64,000 nt of DNA, from positions 1,496 to 65,495 of IMG/VR virus record IMGVR_UViG_2513237085_000001; one strand, given 5' to 3'. The stretch's first letter is position 1; each line of letters starts with the position of its first letter. Under the pieces are notes generated by a model. The model had not been told where the DNA came from, did not search any database, and was given only the letters and a program-made list of their open reading frames with translations. The translations under genes and the position numbers were made by a program. Positions 32,524 to 61,654 of this stretch are shown here, one piece after another. This DNA is from a virus.

Positions 32524-33981
32524 TTACCTCATTCCCGATCGCTGGAGCACAGCATCGCTGATGACCATGACGCGAGAGAGTTGAACGTTGTCGGCAGCGA
32601 TCACGGCGTCCGCCAGGTTATGCGACTTCACTCCCAGGTCTTTTTTCAGTTTCACCTTGGGAACGACCCGCTTCTTGCCTTCGCTCTCCACCCACCACGG
32701 TACACATAGCTCGGTGAATAGAGCATCGAGCTTTGCGGCCCCGATCCCAGACGAGAACGAAAGAACATCCTCAGCCCTGATAGGTTGGCCCCTGGTGACG
32801 GCATTGAACGTCAGCATCGCCCGTCGTGCAGTATTCGCCCAGGCCTGCGCCTTGCGGTTCAGGTATTCGTCCTTATTCAGCGGGCTTTTGCTGTTGTAAG
32901 GGTCGCTAGCCTTGTCCGGTTCGAGAACAGCTCCGCCGGCATGAAAGGCGTAGTGGTTAACCCGGGCCCGGTTTTCCTTGTTCTGCTCGTCGATATATCC
33001 ACCAACGAATGCGCCGACGCCGATCGTATCGTACGACACAGTTGCGCCAATGGCCTTCGCCTTGGCCCACACCTTTTTGGCGTTCTGAACGAGCTCATCC
33101 TTGCCAGACGACCAATCATCGACCTCGGCGAAGATGCCGCCGACCTTGTCGGCCGTCGCGCATTTGTCCTCGCCATCGTCGGCAGGGTCGAACCCGATAA
33201 TATTCCGCCCGGTCAGGCTGATATTCAGCGTCACATGAGCGTCTATGCAGGCATCGAGCCAGCGGCGCTTGAAGATCGAAAGCTCGCTGTCGCCGAGTGG
33301 TATGCCACCATAGACGTGTTCGAACGTCTCCGGGTTGCGCTCCCGCATCGCGGCGATATCACGCAACGCTTTCTGCGAGAGGAATGGATTCTCGGTGTAA
33401 TCGATCTTCCGAACCACGCAGTGCGGCGGCACGTTGATGACGAAGTTCTTCCAGACGTAATCAGTTACGAGCTTCGGATTGAAGAGCAGGATCGCGAGGC
33501 TGTCTTCCTTGCGGATCGTCGGCCCGATGACCGTCCACTGATCCTCGGTCAGCTTCTCCGCTTCTTCGACCCAGAGGATATCGACGTCGGACGTGCCCTT
33601 GATGTCTTCTAAATTTCGCTCAATGCCGTAGAAGATGAATTCCGACCCCGTCACCTTGTGGATGATGGTGGTCTTCTGAACGTCGTACTGGTCGCCGAGA
33701 CCGAGATGAGCGATCGCCCATTTCAGTTCCGTGTAGACCGAATCCTGAATGCGGTTCTGGAAGCGACGGATGCAAAGTACCCGCATCCTGACGCCGACAT
33801 GGTTGACCAACCGAACCAACTGGCAGGCCGTGTCTCGCGTCTTTGAGCTGGAGCGACCGCCGTGAAGGACCGCGATGTCCGCCTGCCCGAGGAAAACCTG
33901 CTCCCAAAAATCATGAAGGGCGGGGTTGGTGAGATATGTGGTGGCGTCTAGCTCTTCTCGCTGCGCAGCACTTCCCGCCAT
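32524..33981 (-). CDS. terL: Terminase large subunit (PBSX-type)
   Basis: Walker A LHGGRSSSKT, Walker B ILWVEEAE, nuclease GFDPAD and SHNLADA. Confidence 0.95.
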   Translation of the reverse strand: MAGSAAQREELDATTYLTNPALHDFWEQVFLGQADIAVLHGGRSSSKTRDTACQLVRLVNHVGVRMRVLCIRRFQNRIQDSVYTELKWAIAHLGLGDQYDVQKTTIIHKVTGSEFIFYGIERNLEDIKGTSDVDILWVEEAEKLTEDQWTVIGPTIRKEDSLAILLFNPKLVTDYVWKNFVINVPPHCVVRKIDYTENPFLSQKALRDIAAMRERNPETFEHVYGGIPLGDSELSIFKRRWLDACIDAHVTLNISLTGRNIIGFDPADDGEDKCATADKVGGIFAEVDDWSSGKDELVQNAKKVWAKAKAIGATVSYDTIGVGAFVGGYIDEQNKENRARVNHYAFHAGGAVLEPDKASDPYNSKSPLNKDEYLNRKAQAWANTARRAMLTFNAVTRGQPIRAEDVLSFSSGIGAAKLDALFTELCVPWWVESEGKKRVVPKVKLKKDLGVKSHNLADAVIAADNVQLSRVMVISDAVLQRSGMR

Positions 33982-34559
33982 GTTCTCGTCTCGGTCTGGA
34001 TCGGCGCGCCGTCCTTGCCTGTGTGCTCGTGCCGCTCGATGAACATGCCGAGGTGCTTGCCAATGTCGACGAGCGCGCCCTTCTTGTCGTGAAGCTTCAG
34101 CTTAATGCCGCCGGTCGAGTTCTGGCTGATCTCGGCGATTGCCGCCGCCGTCTCGTCGTCGATGTCATCGCTGGAAACGAGCTGCACGTTGTTGGTGACG
34201 ACATTCTTGATCACCAGGACATCACCGCCGTCGGGGTTGTCTTCCTCAGTGACCAGCGTGCCTTGCCACTTGATGGCCTTGCGGATGTCGGAGAACCCGA
34301 TCTTGGCCAGTTCCTCCAAAACGCGCTCTTTCGTGATGGCGAGCTTTTCGATGGCCTTTTCGGTGGCTTTCCGCTCTACCGTCTGCTCCCATTCCAAAAG
34401 CTCGGAGACGCGTTGTCTGATGTTGTCTTTCTGCTGTAAGCGAGAGGCATTTCCGCGGTCTGGTTTGAAGCCAGCGGCCGCATATGCGTCATCTGCTGTA
34501 TTGCCTTTGGAGAGGGCCTGAGCGAACTTCTCGTGCCGGGCGTTTTTTAGGACTGGCAT
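33948..34559 (-). CDS. terS: Terminase small subunit
   Basis: LKNARHEKFAQAL...AYAAAGF...NASRL N-terminus; KLKLHDKKGALVDIGKHLGMF; EHTGKDGAPI. Confidence 0.92.
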   Translation of the reverse strand: MPVLKNARHEKFAQALSKGNTADDAYAAAGFKPDRGNASRLQQKDNIRQRVSELLEWEQTVERKATEKAIEKLAITKERVLEELAKIGFSDIRKAIKWQGTLVTEEDNPDGGDVLVIKNVVTNNVQLVSSDDIDDETAAAIAEISQNSTGGIKLKLHDKKGALVDIGKHLGMFIERHEHTGKDGAPIQTETRTWREVLRSEKS

Positions 34560-35627: not shown

Positions 35628-35656
35628 AAAAAGAGCCGGGACATCGCCCAGCTCTT
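35628..35656 (-). terminator. Strong intrinsic terminator ahead of the late operon
   Basis: AAGAGCUGGG-CGAUGU-CCCGGCUCUU 10-bp stem, with the U run continuing (UUUUU). Confidence 0.8.
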
Positions 35657-35678: not shown

Positions 35679-35936
35679 TCAGCAGGCGCGCCATCGATGC
35701 GCGAGGCTGAGGCCGTGAGTGTCATAGCTTTCGCGATAGACCGGCTTCAGGTCGGCGATCTGGCGGAATGCTGCGACACCGATCTCGTGCGCCGAACGCC
35801 AAGCGTAGGGGGCAGCGACGAGCATCACCGCCCGGAAGAACGCATCCAGAGCGCTGTAGAGGGTGATGAAGACGGGAGAGACGTAGTTGGCGATCACCGA
35901 AATGATGGTCGCAAAGGTCAGACTGCGATAAGCCAT
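35679..35936 (-). CDS. Hypothetical 85-aa hydrophobic protein
   Basis: RBS GAGGAAAG 5' of ATG; followed by the terminator. Confidence 0.6.
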   Translation of the reverse strand: MAYRSLTFATIISVIANYVSPVFITLYSALDAFFRAVMLVAAPYAWRSAHEIGVAAFRQIADLKPVYRESYDTHGLSLAHRWRAC

Positions 35937-35939
35937 GCT

Positions 35940-36515
35940 CTTTCCTCATGAGAATGTTGTGGAGGCTTGCGGACCTCCGCCTCTCGTGTTCGCCCCGAGA
36001 GCTTACGGCGGGCTTGGGTGCTCTGGTGCCTCGCGCTAGCGGTTGGCTTTCCGCTGCACTTCCTTCCGGCTTCATGGCGCACCGGCGATCGGCTCTTGGG
36101 AAACGGGGCCAGGCACTTTGTGCCGCCTTTGCCACGGAAGCGGCCGGTCATCAGCCGGCTTGCCCTTGGCCCCTCTTGGGTTGGAAAGACGCCGGGGAGG
36201 CCGAAGCCTCACGCGAAAACGCGCTCCCGAACGATTTATGAATTGATGCCCTAGTCGGACCCTTTCGGGTGAGGCTCTCACAAGGACTTTGCGCCACCAT
36301 TAACCGACTGTCAGGGTATCGACGGTTTCTCCGTCACGGCATCCCAGCTGGTTTCGGCCTCGTGGACCGCAACCCTTGGCGTGAGTGCGCGCCTGATCTG
36401 AATTTAAGACAGCGTTCTTTTTGTGCGATTGGCGGTGATAACCAATCCGGGGCCCGGCGAGTATTCCCTCTCAGAGAGGTCCGCGATCAGAACAGCCCAA
36501 ATCACCTTGGGCTGG
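35940..36515 (-). ncRNA. Putative large structured non-coding RNA / late-operon leader (family unassigned)
   Basis: About 580 nt with no credible ORF; more than 15 hand-verified helices including nested long-range pairs and UUCG/GAAA loops. Confidence 0.72.
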
Positions 36516-36518
36516 ATA

Positions 36519-37205
36519 TTACGCAACACGATCTATGGTTTCAAGCCCCTCATATGCCTCTAATTGCTCCAATTGCAGCAGCATCCCCATGACTTTGCTC
36601 TGCATCTCGGGTTTCATGTCCTTGATGGTGAGAAGAGCCTGGTCCTTGAGGTTGATCCGGTTGCCTCTGCCCTTCGGCAGGATCTTGCGGAGATTGCCGC
36701 GAAGCTGCATGACCTGGCCGGACGTCTCTGTCTGGATTCGGGTGATGCGCTCGCGGCGGAATTCCTGCCGGCGCGATAGCTCCTCGGCTGCGATGACAGC
36801 GAGATCGTCTCCGCTGAATCGGATCGGCCCGAACTCGGAACGAAGAAAGCAGACCACACCCTCGACGTCGCGCACCTTCTCGAAGTTCAGGTTTTCGAGG
36901 TTCACGAAGGCATAGCCGACCAGCAGCGGCAACCGGCGCTGGATGACCTTCCGGGTGCGGTGGTGAATGCTCTCGTACCAATAGGCCGGCATGTAGACGC
37001 TGATACCCTCGTTGCGGAGGTTGCGCTCGATGATGCTCTCTCCGACACGATGGACAGGTGCATCGGCGACATGACTGGCCATCCGCTGAGTACCGGGCGC
37101 TGTGCGGATAGCGTACCAGTCACGCCCTTTCAGACGCTTCCGTCTTTGCTCGATGATCTCGTTGAAATCCCGAGTGTCCTGTTCCTTCAGCTTCATCGCC
37201 GCCAT
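36519..37205 (-). CDS. NusG-family (NGN domain) transcription antiterminator, lacking a recognisable KOW domain
   Basis: WYAIRTAPG, GISVYMP, PLLVGYAFVNL, VRDVEGVVCFL, GPIRF; sits at the lambda-Q position upstream of the terminase genes. Confidence 0.88.
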   Translation of the reverse strand: MAAMKLKEQDTRDFNEIIEQRRKRLKGRDWYAIRTAPGTQRMASHVADAPVHRVGESIIERNLRNEGISVYMPAYWYESIHHRTRKVIQRRLPLLVGYAFVNLENLNFEKVRDVEGVVCFLRSEFGPIRFSGDDLAVIAAEELSRRQEFRRERITRIQTETSGQVMQLRGNLRKILPKGRGNRINLKDQALLTIKDMKPEMQSKVMGMLLQLEQLEAYEGLETIDRVA

Positions 37206-37237
37206 TTTCATTCCCTCTGTTTCGAGCCGCCGCTCGG

Positions 37238-37879
37238 TTATGCTGTGATTGTGAAAACTCTTTCCGGTTTTCCCGGAACATCGTCGTCGAAGACCGCGAT
37301 CGCCAGCTTGCCAGTCCAGACCGCCCCAGTGTCGAGATTGCACCGACCTTCCAAGATGATCGGACCGTCTTCGAATGGGGTATGGCCGTGAACGACGTAT
37401 CCCTCAGGATGGCTGAGGTCGCGGTGCTTGGTGCCCCGATACCAGAGCAGCATTGCTTCCGTCTGGTCGGCCATAGTCTTTGTGGGATCAACTCCGGCAT
37501 GAACGAAAATTCGCTCGCCATCCGAATGATACTGCGGCAAGGATTCCGCCCAGGTAATATATTCATCCGGCACAACACCGCCGAACGAAATCAAGGTCTC
37601 GCGTCCTCCGTTGCCGAGCCACCACGGCATATCCGCTTGCCCGCGGATGCACGCCACCATCATGTCTTCGTGGTTGCCTTTAAGGCATATCCAGCGCCAA
37701 CGATCATCCGTCGGGCCATGCATCAGACGATCCATCACTTGCTTCGAGGTTGGACCGCGATCGATATAGTCGCCGGTGAAGACGACTGTACCGCCGCTCT
37801 GGTTTGCCTCGATGCGCTCAAGAGCGGCATGCAGCAGATCGTACCTACCGTGAATATCTGCGATGACGTAGGTCTTCAT
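37238..37879 (-). CDS. Metallophosphoesterase (phage Ser/Thr phosphatase, NinI-like)
   Basis: ADIHG, GDYIDRG, GNHE, VHAG, HGHT, DTGA. Confidence 0.92.
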   Translation of the reverse strand: MKTYVIADIHGRYDLLHAALERIEANQSGGTVVFTGDYIDRGPTSKQVMDRLMHGPTDDRWRWICLKGNHEDMMVACIRGQADMPWWLGNGGRETLISFGGVVPDEYITWAESLPQYHSDGERIFVHAGVDPTKTMADQTEAMLLWYRGTKHRDLSHPEGYVVHGHTPFEDGPIILEGRCNLDTGAVWTGKLAIAVFDDDVPGKPERVFTITA

Positions 37880-61469: not shown

Positions 61470-61654
61470 GAACCGCAGCCGACTACCTTCGCAAGCATCC
61501 TAGCGCCCGGCCCAGCACCATCGCGTTCATCGATCGCCGGAACGCTGTCGTCGAGCAGCTCAAGCGAGAGCTTGAAGCAGCCGAGGCGGCAAAACGGCCG
61601 ACGCGCAAGTCCATCATCGGCCTATTCATGCCATGGTTCCGGAGGCGAGCATGA
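61466..61654 (+). CDS. Small hypothetical protein
   Basis: GTGA overlap start. Confidence 0.55.
   Translation: MRTAADYLRKHPSARPSTIAFIDRRNAVVEQLKRELEAAEAAKRPTRKSIIGLFMPWFRRRA

What the first reader, a model, noticed from the sequence alone, without database searches (positions are those of the whole stretch)
35940..36515. About 580-nt ornate structured RNA between the NusG-like gene and the late operon: top candidate for a new system
Read on the minus strand, the region is almost fully foldable. Hairpins: CAGCCCAA/UUGGGCUG (36493-36514); GAGGC-UUCG-GCCUC (36197-36210); GACGG-AGAAA-CCGUC (36321-36335); CC-GAAA-GG; GCCGG-CUGAUGA-CCGGC (36143-36159); GGCAC/GUGCC; AGCGG/CCGCU; CUCUCG/CGAGAG; GGAGG/CCUCC. 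Nested long-range helices close multibranch domains: CUGAUC/GAUCAG (36485-90 with 36393-98), GAUGCC/GGCAUC (36338-43 with 36245-50) enclosing AGUCGG/CCGACU, CGGG/CCCG, GGGGCCA/UGGCCCC (36167-73 with 36105-11) and GGUGC/GCACC. I could not assign it to a known family. Hypothesis 1: a cis-acting antitermination RNA loading the adjacent NusG paralogue (conceptually like put, EAR or LoaP leaders, but larger). Hypothesis 2: a large phage ncRNA of the GOLLD/ROOL kind in an alphaproteobacterial phage.
Basis: partly seen in the sequence, partly recalled or inferred. Interest (0 to 1): 0.88.

Follow-up and report, generated by a model that had tools for sequence, protein, structure and literature searches.

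The report
Three-module phage late-operon RNA leader
The 580-base gap between a rhizobial prophage's NusG-like regulator gene and its packaging genes is not one giant RNA: it is an untranslated leader built from three separately inherited pieces, namely a promoter-proximal control element tied to the regulator gene and two structured RNA motifs that match no Rfam 15 family and sit where related phages carry a tRNA gene.

Summary
It is not a single "ornate" RNA. The whole-region fold is barely better than shuffles (z -1.7), and relatives show three independently assorting modules.

- **Module A (36518-36400).** It holds a sigma-70-like promoter, GTGATTT, a covarying hairpin and GGGAAUACUCG. It follows NusG-like genes in 60 of 80 related viral loci. 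It is the likely loading site of the NusG paralogue.
- **Motif B (36237-36342).** This is a ~100-nt three-way junction with two pseudoknots. I found 25 copies (23 distinct); 97.6% of cells pair, and 10 pairs carry compensatory changes against 1-3 in slid controls. It occurs in 3 of 80 NusG loci, and in other loci it lies behind other regulator-position genes.
- **Module C (35946-36181).** This is a ~235-nt multi-stem RNA with about 11 copies and 10 covarying pairs. In relatives it abuts tRNA-Met.

Neither B nor C matches Rfam 15. In 29 of 60 relatives scanned the same slot holds a tRNA, almost always tRNA-Met.

My best reading is that a long untranslated late leader, read by NusG-paralogue-modified polymerase through a terminator at 35632-35655, carries RNA cargo of unknown function. 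Transcription was not shown.

The parts
36519..37343 (-). NusG-like gene (phage 'transcription antiterminator'); the true start may be internal (about 37205)
   Evidence: Pfam NusG NGN domain, E 2.7e-8. PHROG phrog_25909 'transcription antiterminator', E 5e-57.
36516..36544 (-). Sigma-70-like promoter, TTGAAA-17-TAATAT, overlapping the NusG stop codon. Inferred late promoter, with a start near 36509.
   Evidence: Promoter scan: 1 site found against 0.3 expected. Both hexamers are kept in close relatives. Similar hexamers precede GTGATTT in distant NusG loci. Promoter activity is not shown.
36458..36505 (-). Core of module A: GTGATTT (36499-36505), GTTCTGATCGCGGACC, hairpin CCUCU-CUG-AGAGG (36467-36479) and GGGAAUACUCG (36458-36468). 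Candidate loading or pause site for the NusG paralogue.
   Evidence: GTGATTT lies within -40..+120 of the NusG stop in 60 of 80 loci; the background is 0.046 per 160 nt. The composite element is found in 61 loci, with 24 distinct hairpin segments that nearly all keep a CC...GG-closed stem. Compensatory CCCAU/AUGGG in L006 and L007.
36400..36518 (-). Module A as a whole: the block inherited together with the NusG gene
   Evidence: 93-98% identical in L002, L004, L005 and L009-L012. Homology ends at about 36400.
36237..36342 (-). Motif B: a 5' hairpin (GACGG-AGAAA-CCGUC, 36321-36335) followed by a three-way junction closed by GUCGG/CCGAC (about 36254-36308), with a 3' tail UAGGGCA that pairs with a hairpin loop. 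A structured RNA family that matches nothing in Rfam 15.
   Evidence: Covariance model R1 scores 95.8 bits, E 2.7e-23. 25 copies, 23 distinct; 97.6% of cells paired; 10 pairs with changes on both sides against 1-3 in slid controls. Fold z -2.63. No Rfam match.
36188..36242 (-). Spacer with hairpin GAGGC-UUCG-GCCUC (36197-36210), inherited together with motif B in some relatives
   Evidence: Shared with L022 (R. leguminosarum Tri-43), where the loop differs. A metagenome contig in X4 covers 36188-36497 with 8 differences and diverges at 36188.
35946..36181 (-). Module C: a ~235-nt multi-stem RNA. The 5' domain is closed by GGGGCCA/UGGCCCC and carries two hairpins. The 3' domain is strongly conserved and ends in GGAGG...CCUCC, just before the ribosome-binding site.
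   Evidence: Covariance model R2 scores 202.7 bits. 8 aligned copies; 95.7% of cells paired; 10 covarying pairs against 0-3 in slid controls. It directly follows tRNA-Met in L039-L043, L006 and L008. Only the 5' domain is present in L012.
35679..35936 (-). First ORF after the leader (85 aa, hydrophobic small protein)
   Evidence: ORF list. GC3 of 0.75-0.82. A homologous ORF follows motif B in L017 (cluster C95).
35628..35655 (-). Intrinsic terminator-like hairpin AGAGCUGGG-CGAUGU-CCCGGCUCU followed by UUUU, between the 85-aa ORF and the remaining late genes
   Evidence: My own hairpin/U-run scan, dG -14.7 kcal/mol. Comparable terminators lie between motif B and the terminase genes in 11 of 19 loci.
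32524..34559 (-). Small and large terminase subunit genes (downstream late operon)
   Evidence: Pfam Terminase_2, E 6e-16, and Terminase_3, E 1e-36.

Best explanation
The interval is the untranslated 5' leader of the prophage's late (packaging) operon. It is a mosaic of three independent modules, not one RNA.

Shown:
- Module A is inherited with NusG-like genes across distant lineages.
- Motif B (~100 nt; a three-way junction with two pseudoknots) is a conserved RNA structure on the late-gene strand. It has its own distribution and no Rfam match.
- Module C (~235 nt) is likewise a conserved RNA structure on the late-gene strand, with a separate distribution and no Rfam match.
- B and C occupy the slot that holds a tRNA, almost always tRNA-Met, in about half of the related phages scanned.
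- A terminator-like hairpin lies between the leader and the terminase genes.

Inferred mechanism:
- Host RNA polymerase starts at the promoter that overlaps the NusG stop codon.
- At the conserved initial transcribed element (GTGATTT, hairpin, GGGAAUACUCG) it is joined by the phage NusG paralogue. The paralogue makes it resistant to Rho and to intrinsic terminators.
- This lets the polymerase cross a long, untranslated, highly structured leader and the terminator at 35632-35655 and reach the terminase and virion genes.
- B and C are autonomous RNA cargo riding in that protected leader, as tRNA-Met does in relatives. They are most likely released or kept as stable structured RNAs. Their molecular role is unknown.
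For: Mosaic structure:
- BLAST against relatives splits the region at about 36400 and about 36185.
- A metagenome contig breaks at 36188.

Module A:
- Promoter-like site.
- Conserved block in close relatives, with a compensated hairpin.
- The same layout follows NusG genes of 31-40% identity.
- GTGATTT within -40..+120 of the NusG stop in 60 of 80 loci, against 0.046 expected.
- 24 hairpin variants that keep the stem.

Motif B:
- 25 copies.
- Covariation in 6 of 7 helices. This includes helices 2, 4 and 6 (the two pseudoknots and the 2-bp helix), which were not in the covariance model.
- Tetraloop swaps UUCG/GAAA/GAGA/AAAA.
- An invariant G-U pair fixes the strand.

Module C:
-.

Optional cargo:
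- B in 3 of 80 and C in 3-5 of 80 NusG loci.
- A tRNA on the same strand in 29 of 60 loci, tRNA-Met in 27 of them.
- C abuts the tRNA 3' end. It is followed by a terminator in L042 and by a tRNA in L046.

Terminators:
- Downstream of B in 11 of 19 loci.

Non-coding:
-.
Against: - No transcription data. No run on record as RNA holds the motif-B stretch. The only confirmed RNA-Seq run (X19) gave one contig over module A and the NusG 3' end. A 227-nt, depth-79 contig spanning 36294-36484 comes from a library whose RNA nature is only guessed.
- The promoter, the transcription start and NusG loading are inferred from sequence alone.
- Motif B keeps a strictly fixed position and orientation, between a regulator-position gene and the leader terminator, in all copies. 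This fits a cis-acting role at least as well as 'cargo'.
- Diversity within B is modest: two main clades plus outliers. Several covarying cells therefore reflect few events.
- Module C folds no better than shuffles (z -0.64), and its 3' half is nearly invariant, so it is structurally untested.
Confidence: 0.6

Rival explanations
1. Motif B, alone or with the hairpin/GGAAUGCGAGG box found beside it in relatives, is itself a cis-acting processive-antitermination RNA. It would act like put or EAR, or as a protein-binding nut-like site, and would let polymerase pass the leader terminator whichever regulator gene lies upstream.
For: - B always lies on the late strand, 0-550 nt after the regulator-position gene.
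- It lies upstream of an intrinsic terminator in 11 of 19 loci.
- This position is kept although the upstream gene belongs to at least four families and the terminase to several.
- Long invariant unpaired stretches suggest a binding surface.
- A conserved hairpin-plus-box accompanies B in 16 of 24 loci.
Against: - Near-identical NusG/module-A phages do without B.
- The window copy lacks the 5' pseudoknot and the accompanying box.
- tRNA genes share the same positional bias.
- No similarity to EAR or any other Rfam cis-regulator.
Confidence: 0.15
2. Motif B is a riboswitch-like sensor: an aptamer closed by a pseudoknot. It would gate late-gene expression in response to a small molecule or a host state.
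For: - A compact three-way junction.
- Near-invariant junction nucleotides.
- A loop-to-tail pseudoknot and a 5' pseudoknot supported by compensatory changes.
- Leader position upstream of terminators.
Against: - There is no consistent expression platform. The 3' flanks differ completely between lineages, and the distance to the terminator or ribosome-binding site ranges from 150 to 700 nt.
- The narrow, phage-only distribution gives no metabolic gene association.
Confidence: 0.08
3. B and/or C are RNA-stability or processing elements of the late mRNA. They could block exonucleases (rhizobia have RNase J), act as RNase E/P/Z processing signals, or be a self-cleaving ribozyme.
For: - The three-way junction plus loop-to-3'-tail pseudoknot of B resembles exonuclease-resistant RNAs. 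This comparison comes from my own knowledge, not from a test.
- C abuts the tRNA 3' end, where RNase Z or RNase P act.
Against: - No match to any ribozyme family in Rfam.
- In the window B is about 170 nt from the predicted 5' end, and in different loci it is followed by unrelated sequence.
Confidence: 0.07
4. One ~580-nt ornate RNA of the GOLLD/ROOL kind.
For: - Many hairpins, a prophage location, and tRNA adjacency of module C in relatives.
Against: - Three modules with separate distributions.
- The inter-module helices are not conserved.
- Whole-region z is only -1.71.
- No GOLLD or ROOL match.
Confidence: 0.03
5. Conservation reflects recent common descent or a DNA-level site (a packaging or recombination site), not RNA structure.
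For: - Very high primary-sequence identity in the cores of B and C.
- Position just upstream of the terminase genes, where cos/pac sites often lie.
Against: - Compensatory changes in 10 pairs each.
- G-U pairs that would be A-C on the other strand.
- Tetraloop swaps and stem-preserving indels.
- Flanking DNA is unrelated between carriers.
Confidence: 0.05

Closest known systems
Lambda Q / PR'-qut-tR' late control module, and RfaH-ops / LoaP-leader recruitment of specialised NusG paralogues
   Same: - The regulator gene lies immediately upstream of a promoter.
- A conserved promoter-proximal element follows.
- Then comes an untranslated leader, a terminator and the late genes.
- The regulator has a NusG NGN domain.
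   Different: - The protein is NusG-like, not Q-like.
- The element (GTGATTT, hairpin, GGGAAUACUCG) does not resemble ops: there is no GGCGGTAGNNTG near the region.
- Loading, pausing and antitermination are untested.
HK022 put RNA and Bacillus EAR (cis-acting processive antitermination RNAs)
   Same: Motif B is a compact structured RNA in the leader of a long operon, upstream of terminators.
   Different: - No Rfam EAR match.
- B is a pseudoknotted three-way junction, not put's two stem-loops (my own knowledge of put).
- B is dispensable in sister phages with the same regulator.
Phage tRNA-cluster stable RNAs (T4 species 1/2, rnaC and rnaD) and tRNA-adjacent prophage ncRNAs such as GOLLD and ROOL
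   Same: - Module C sits directly after a phage tRNA-Met, or before a tRNA, and can end at its own terminator.
- B and C occupy the tRNA slot.
- Function unknown.
   Different: - No sequence or structure match to GOLLD or ROOL.
- Sizes are 100 and 235 nt, against about 600-800 nt.
- The comparison with the T4 RNAs rests on my own knowledge, not on a test.
Pseudoknotted riboswitch aptamers (orphan riboswitch candidates)
   Same: Motif B has a three-way junction, invariant junction nucleotides and two covariation-supported pseudoknots.
   Different: No conserved expression platform and no gene-function association. No ligand is known.

Membership tests
Any Rfam 15 family | Covariance-model match at or near the gathering score | tested here: not met
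   No hits at gathering score over the whole window. No hits at E<=10 on 35700-36800 or on a full motif-B copy in L016. Only chance hits on the opposite strand (16 and 13 bits) on the phiLM21 copy of module C.
GOLLD / ROOL large phage ncRNAs | One conserved RNA unit of about 500 nt or more, inherited as a whole | tested here: not met
   Relatives share only 36518-36400, or 36310-36188, or 36181-35946, never the whole region.
GOLLD / ROOL large phage ncRNAs | Prophage location, frequently next to tRNA genes | tested here: met
   Module C directly follows tRNA-Met in L006, L008 and L039-L043 and precedes a tRNA in L046. The window itself has no tRNA. A positional resemblance only.
Recruitment element of a specialised NusG paralogue (RfaH-ops / LoaP-leader type) | Co-occurs with the paralogue gene or its regulon across lineages | tested here: met
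   Met for module A only: 60 of 80 NusG loci, against 0.046 expected. Not met for motif B (3 of 80) or module C (3-5 of 80).
Recruitment element of a specialised NusG paralogue (RfaH-ops / LoaP-leader type) | ops consensus GGCGGTAGNNTG in the leader | tested here: not met
   With up to 1 mismatch the only match in the window is at 61496, far from the leader.
Recruitment element of a specialised NusG paralogue (RfaH-ops / LoaP-leader type) | The paralogue binds the element and confers terminator read-through | not testable with these tools
   Needs EMSA, in vitro transcription or reporters.
Cis-acting antitermination RNA (put / EAR) | Lies between the promoter and the first terminator of a long operon | tested here: met
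   Motif B lies downstream of the predicted promoter. It lies upstream of a terminator-like hairpin in the window and in 10 other loci. Promoters are predicted only.
Cis-acting antitermination RNA (put / EAR) | Family sequence and structure (EAR model; put's two stem-loops) | tested here: not met
   No EAR hit. B's consensus is a three-way junction with pseudoknots. I did not check whether Rfam holds a put model, so the put comparison rests on my own knowledge.
Riboswitch | Conserved aptamer-like core with tertiary pairing | tested here: met
   Motif B: near-invariant junctions, and two pseudoknots with compensatory changes.
Riboswitch | Adjacent, conserved expression platform (a terminator, or ribosome-binding-site sequestration overlapping the aptamer's 3' side) | tested here: not met
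   The 3' flanks are unrelated between lineages. Terminators lie 150-700 nt away or are absent.
tRNA / tRNA-like gene | Cloverleaf detected by ARAGORN | tested here: not met
   No tRNA or tmRNA in the window.

The most novel reading that the evidence does not exclude
Motif B is a new class of pseudoknotted regulatory RNA that senses a ligand or a protein in the late leader of rhizobial phages. Alone or with the neighbouring hairpin/GGAAUGCGAGG box, it decides whether polymerase passes the leader terminator. That would make it an RNA-level switch for the timing of phage late gene expression, working independently of which regulator protein the phage encodes.
Probability: 0.15. Interest if true: 0.8.

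Novelty: new variant of a known kind. Interest (0 to 1): 0.55.

Why it matters
Three things would follow if this holds.

- **A testable cis element for phage NusG paralogues.** It pinpoints a conserved promoter-proximal element for a widespread family of phage NusG-like 'antiterminators' in rhizobial prophages. Their recruitment signal is uncharacterised as far as I know. It could be tested as a Q-like, NusG-based late switch.
- **Two new structured RNA families.** Motif B is ~100 nt, with two pseudoknots and 25 copies. Module C is ~235 nt and linked to tRNA genes. Neither is in Rfam 15. Motif B shows the kind of sequence and structure conservation usually seen in riboswitches, ribozymes or protein-binding RNAs.
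- **A general layout.** An antitermination-protected, untranslated late leader would serve as a slot for RNA cargo (tRNA-Met, B, C). This parallels why rRNA and tRNA operons need antitermination.

The distribution is narrow. It covers Rhizobiaceae and Phyllobacterium prophages: 3 of 151 Rhizobiaceae species genomes, and none of 150 further genomes sampled from the order. The functions are unknown. The interest is therefore moderate rather than high.

Tried and rejected
- **Rfam.** Whole window at gathering score, and three focused E<=10 scans, found nothing real.
- **Protein-coding reading.** The ORFs in the interval are Arg-rich junk without GC3 periodicity.
- **High-copy rhizobial intergenic repeat (RIME-like).** Rejected. 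The motif-B core pattern hits only 2 of 185,579 species genomes, and B has one strong copy per carrier genome.
- **NusG relatives in genome contigs.** The protein query found none.
- **Module C in 401 Rhizobiaceae genomes by BLAST.** No hits.
- **Motif B in 150 further genomes of the order.** No hits.
- **Named phage genomes.** Only phiLM21 (module C) and the RHph phages (module A) match. No named phage carries B.
- **Expression.** No run on record as RNA holds the motif-B stretch; the one confirmed RNA-Seq run (X19) covers only module A and the NusG 3' end. The laid contigs show DNA-level presence plus one ambiguous short high-depth contig.
- **SRP-like similarity.** GGUGGCGC in B and CCGGAAGGAAG in C resemble SRP RNA by eye. 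I rejected this because no SRP model hits and the pairing context differs.
- **Hammerhead reading of CUGAUGA (36143-36159).** Rejected. It is a hairpin loop that is replaced by GGAGC or UGAGU in relatives, and there is no hammerhead hit.
- **The hairpin/GGAAUGCGAGG box in the window.** Absent.
- **Literature.** A 2025 comparative paper on phiLM21-like prophages mentions the tRNA-Met genes but no ncRNA and no NusG (PMC12429752).
Full report
**Setting**

The window is an IMG/VR provirus of 68.9 kb, related to Sinorhizobium phage phiLM21 and the Rhizobium RHph phages. On the minus strand the order is as follows.
- A NusG-like gene at 36519-37343 (Pfam NGN domain E 2.7e-8; PHROG 'transcription antiterminator' E 5e-57).
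- The 580-nt interval under study.
- An 85-aa ORF at 35679-35936.
- Small ORFs, then the small and large terminase genes.

**The observation**

The interval is non-coding. Its ORFs translate to Arg-rich junk. Third-position GC stays at 0.5-0.7, against 0.8-0.9 in both neighbouring genes.

Thermodynamically the region is not exceptional. The minimum free energy is -230.9 kcal/mol against -219.0 +/- 6.9 for dinucleotide shuffles. That gives z -1.71, with 4 of 100 shuffles folding as well. The plus strand gives z -0.89. No Rfam 15 family matches, either at gathering score over the window or at E<=10 over 35700-36800.

**The region is a mosaic**

I compared the region by BLAST with nine IMG/VR relatives that carry the same NusG gene, and with two isolated phages. 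The comparison splits it into three parts.
- 36518-36400 is 93-98% identical in most close NusG relatives. L006-L008 share only the first ~65 nt, at 83-87%.
- 36181-35958 matches L006 and L008 (77%) and phiLM21 (84%).
- The middle part matches none of them.

A search of plasmids found a 65-nt match to the middle part in a Rhizobium megaplasmid. That match seeded the discovery of motif B. A metagenome contig in run X4 covers 36188-36497 with 8 differences and then diverges exactly at 36188. The three pieces therefore assort independently. I call them A, B and C.

**Module A (36518-36400)**

A sigma-70-like promoter, TTGAAA-17-TAATAT, lies at 36544-36516 and overlaps the NusG stop codon. Downstream of it, all close relatives keep three elements.
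- GTGATTT (36499-36505), followed by GTTCTGATCGCGGACC.
- A short hairpin, CCUCU-CUG-AGAGG (36467-36479), which is CCCAU-CUG-AUGGG in L006 and L007.
- GGGAAUACUCG.

The same layout follows the NusG-like genes of phiLM21 (40% amino-acid identity) and of L020 and L021 (31%).

I then collected 80 viral loci with a profile of NusG-like proteins. GTGATTT lies within -40..+120 of the NusG stop in 60 of them. The background expectation is 0.046 per 160 nt. In 61 loci the composite element is present. Its hairpin occurs in 24 distinct versions, nearly all of which keep a CC...GG-closed stem of variable length.

What is shown is tight co-inheritance of this element with the regulator gene. That it is the late promoter and the paralogue's loading or pause site is inferred. 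It is not an ops site.

It carries uncompensated substitutions in L004 and L012 and is disrupted in L006 and L007.

**Motif B (36237-36342)**

Exact-pattern scans and a covariance model (R1) found 25 copies, 23 of them distinct. They fall into these groups.
- 14 IMG/VR viral contigs (15 loci; L021 and the metagenome locus L054 are the same contig).
- Five further metagenome contigs (six loci).
- Two Rhizobium megaplasmids.
- R. leguminosarum Tri-43, Phyllobacterium leguminum, and two further Rhizobiaceae genomes.
- A 26th, divergent copy in L116.

The motif occurs in 3 of 151 Rhizobiaceae species genomes. It was found in none of 150 further genomes sampled from the order. No named phage genome carries it.

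The consensus structure has four parts.
- A 5' hairpin whose loop pairs downstream, forming pseudoknot S2.
- A linker, GAAGAUAG.
- A three-way junction closed by GUCGG/CCGAC. Its first arm is GG-CGCAA...UUGUG-AGAG-CC. Its second arm is a short tetraloop hairpin.
- A 3' tail, UAG(G/C)GCA, that pairs with the first arm's loop.

On the 23 distinct sequences, 97.6% of cells form standard pairs, against 27-40% when the partners are slid. Ten pairs show changes on both sides, against 1-3 in the slid controls. No shuffle out of 500 reaches the observed covariation score.

Examples of compensatory change:
- GGCG/CGCC, GCUG/CAGC and GGAG/CUCC in the 5' hairpin.
- ACGGC/GCCGU and ACAAC/GUUGU in pseudoknot S2.
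- G-C to C-G in the closing stem.
- G-C to U-A in L028.
- C59-G93 to G59-C93 in the loop-tail pairing.
- The second arm swaps UUCG, GAAA, GAGA and AAAA loops.

Helices 2, 4 and 6 (the two pseudoknots and the 2-bp helix) were not part of the model used to align the sequences. An invariant G-U pair and many U-G pairs fix the strand as that of the late genes.

The window copy, like the L116 copy, has the 5' hairpin but lacks the S2 pseudoknot. It folds with z -2.63.

One caveat applies. Diversity is modest (two main clades plus outliers), so several covarying cells derive from few events.

**Module C (35946-36181)**

A pattern scan and model R2 found about eleven copies: the window, phiLM21, L039, L040, L041, L042 (which is L006/L008), L044, L046, a truncated copy in L047, and L090. 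L012 carries a 5'-domain-only copy and L061 a partial copy, each directly after its tRNA-Met.

Eight aligned copies give 95.7% paired cells and 10 covarying pairs, against 0-3 in slid controls. Most of the covariation is in the 5' domain. The 3' domain is almost invariant, so its structure is untested.

Indels of 1-2 nt rule out coding. The fold z is only -0.64.

The contexts of C vary.
- It begins 2-4 nt after the CCA end of a tRNA-Met gene in L006, L008 and L039-L043.
- It is followed by an intrinsic terminator in L042.
- It is followed by a tRNA in L046.
- It is followed by a ribosome-binding site and a small ORF in the window, phiLM21, L039, L041 and L044.

It was not found by BLAST in 401 Rhizobiaceae genomes.

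**Context of B and of the slot**

In all loci with enough flank, B lies on the late strand. It sits 0-550 nt downstream of a gene in the 'regulator position' and upstream of small ORFs and the terminase genes. The upstream gene varies.
- NusG-like in the window, L020, L021 and L116.
- DUF6362 / phrog_6836 proteins in L015, L017 and L018, and in L027, L032 and L037 by clustering with L015.
- phrog_15385 or phrog_21451 proteins in other loci.

Conversely, among the 80 NusG loci, B occurs in 3 and C in 3-5. A tRNA gene lies on the late strand in 29 of 60 loci scanned, and in 27 of them it is tRNA-Met(CAU). Sister phages with 82-93% identical NusG proteins lack B entirely. B and C are therefore optional occupants of a leader slot that usually carries a tRNA. 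They are not obligate partners of the NusG paralogue.

Intrinsic terminators lie between B and the terminase genes in 11 of 19 loci. In the window the terminator follows the 85-aa ORF (hairpin 35655-35632, then UUUU).

**How it most likely works**

Shown: the mosaic anatomy; the link between module A and NusG; the two conserved RNA structures on the late strand; the equivalence of the slot to a tRNA slot; and the leader terminators.

Inferred: transcription starts at the promoter overlapping the NusG stop. The paralogue engages polymerase at module A. The modified polymerase resists Rho and hairpin terminators. It therefore traverses a leader of about 570 nt that is untranslated and highly structured, passes the terminator, and reaches the packaging genes. 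The logic parallels lambda Q at PR'-qut-tR' and RfaH or LoaP at their leaders (established knowledge of those systems). B and C ride in this protected leader as RNA cargo, like tRNA-Met, and are probably stable RNAs.

The rival readings are that B is itself an antitermination RNA, a riboswitch-like sensor, or a stability or processing element. None is excluded. The strictly fixed position of B is the main argument for a cis role.

**Expression**

No run on record as RNA holds the motif-B stretch. The only confirmed RNA-Seq run (X19, a root metatranscriptome) gave one contig over module A and the NusG 3' end (36395-36545). One 227-nt contig at depth 79, from a library whose RNA nature is only guessed, spans 36294-36484 and continues into a divergent B core. 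This is a hint, not evidence. Transcription remains the key untested assumption.

**Comparison and novelty**

Neither B nor C belongs to any Rfam 15 family. The GOLLD/ROOL reading fails on unit size and on co-inheritance. The put/EAR reading fails on structure, though not on position. The riboswitch reading meets the aptamer-like criterion but not the expression-platform criterion. Module A works like a recruitment site for a specialised NusG paralogue but is not ops.

A recent comparative study of phiLM21-like prophages notes the tRNA-Met genes but reports no ncRNA (PMC12429752).

I rate this as a new variant of a known kind: a phage late-control leader with new structured RNA families. Interest is moderate, 0.55. 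It would be higher if B proves to be regulatory.

Noticed in passing
L030:1155-1189, L031, L035, L036, L038 (upstream of motif B); L016, L020, L021 (about +100 to +160 downstream of motif B): A second conserved element lies next to motif B on the same strand in 16 of 24 loci. It consists of the hairpin GAGGC-AAC-GCCUC (with G-U and compensated variants), then AAC, then the box GGAAUGCGAGG. It looks like a nut or rrn-type hairpin-plus-box site. It is absent from the window.
   Followed up: partly
L027, L029, L031, L034, L038: 10-80 nt after motif B; L029 about +90 to +260: In one clade motif B is followed by a conserved long hairpin, CCCUCAUG...CAUGAGGG. It is also followed by long-range arms, AUCAGAACGG...CCGUUCUGAU. 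In L029 these arms enclose a tRNA-like gene with a long insertion. These may be further structured RNA modules in the same leader slot.
   Followed up: no
L015:2199-2828(-), L018:8262-8963(+), L016:3923-4795(-), L022:351-923(+): In other phages the gene position held by the NusG paralogue is filled by DUF6362 / phrog_6836, phrog_15385 or phrog_21451 proteins of unknown function. They are candidates for alternative late regulators.
   Followed up: partly
L055-L134 (80 viral loci), 100-1300 nt after the NusG-like gene: A tRNA gene on the late strand lies in the leader of 29 of 60 NusG-bearing phage loci scanned. It is tRNA-Met(CAU) in 27 of them; the other two carry only tRNA-Thr or tRNA-Asn, and one of the 27 also carries tRNA-Gly and tRNA-Thr.
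   Followed up: partly
window 36294-36484 (run X17): A 227-nt contig at depth 79, from a library of uncertain type, matches module A's 3' part through the first half of motif B. It then continues into a divergent B core (GGAUGUAAAGGCCUCGUGAGGUCC...). That core resembles the L116 variant and extends the GG/CC helix by compensating changes.
   Followed up: no
L013:2467-2568 and L014:1467-1568 (Rhizobium sp. T1470 and T136 megaplasmids): These motif-B copies lie about 80 nt upstream of a 126-aa hydrophilic ORF and away from any terminase gene. Neighbouring ORFs are shared with the phage loci L017 and L022. This is probably a prophage remnant, but it is the one context in which B is not in a late-operon leader.
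   Followed up: partly
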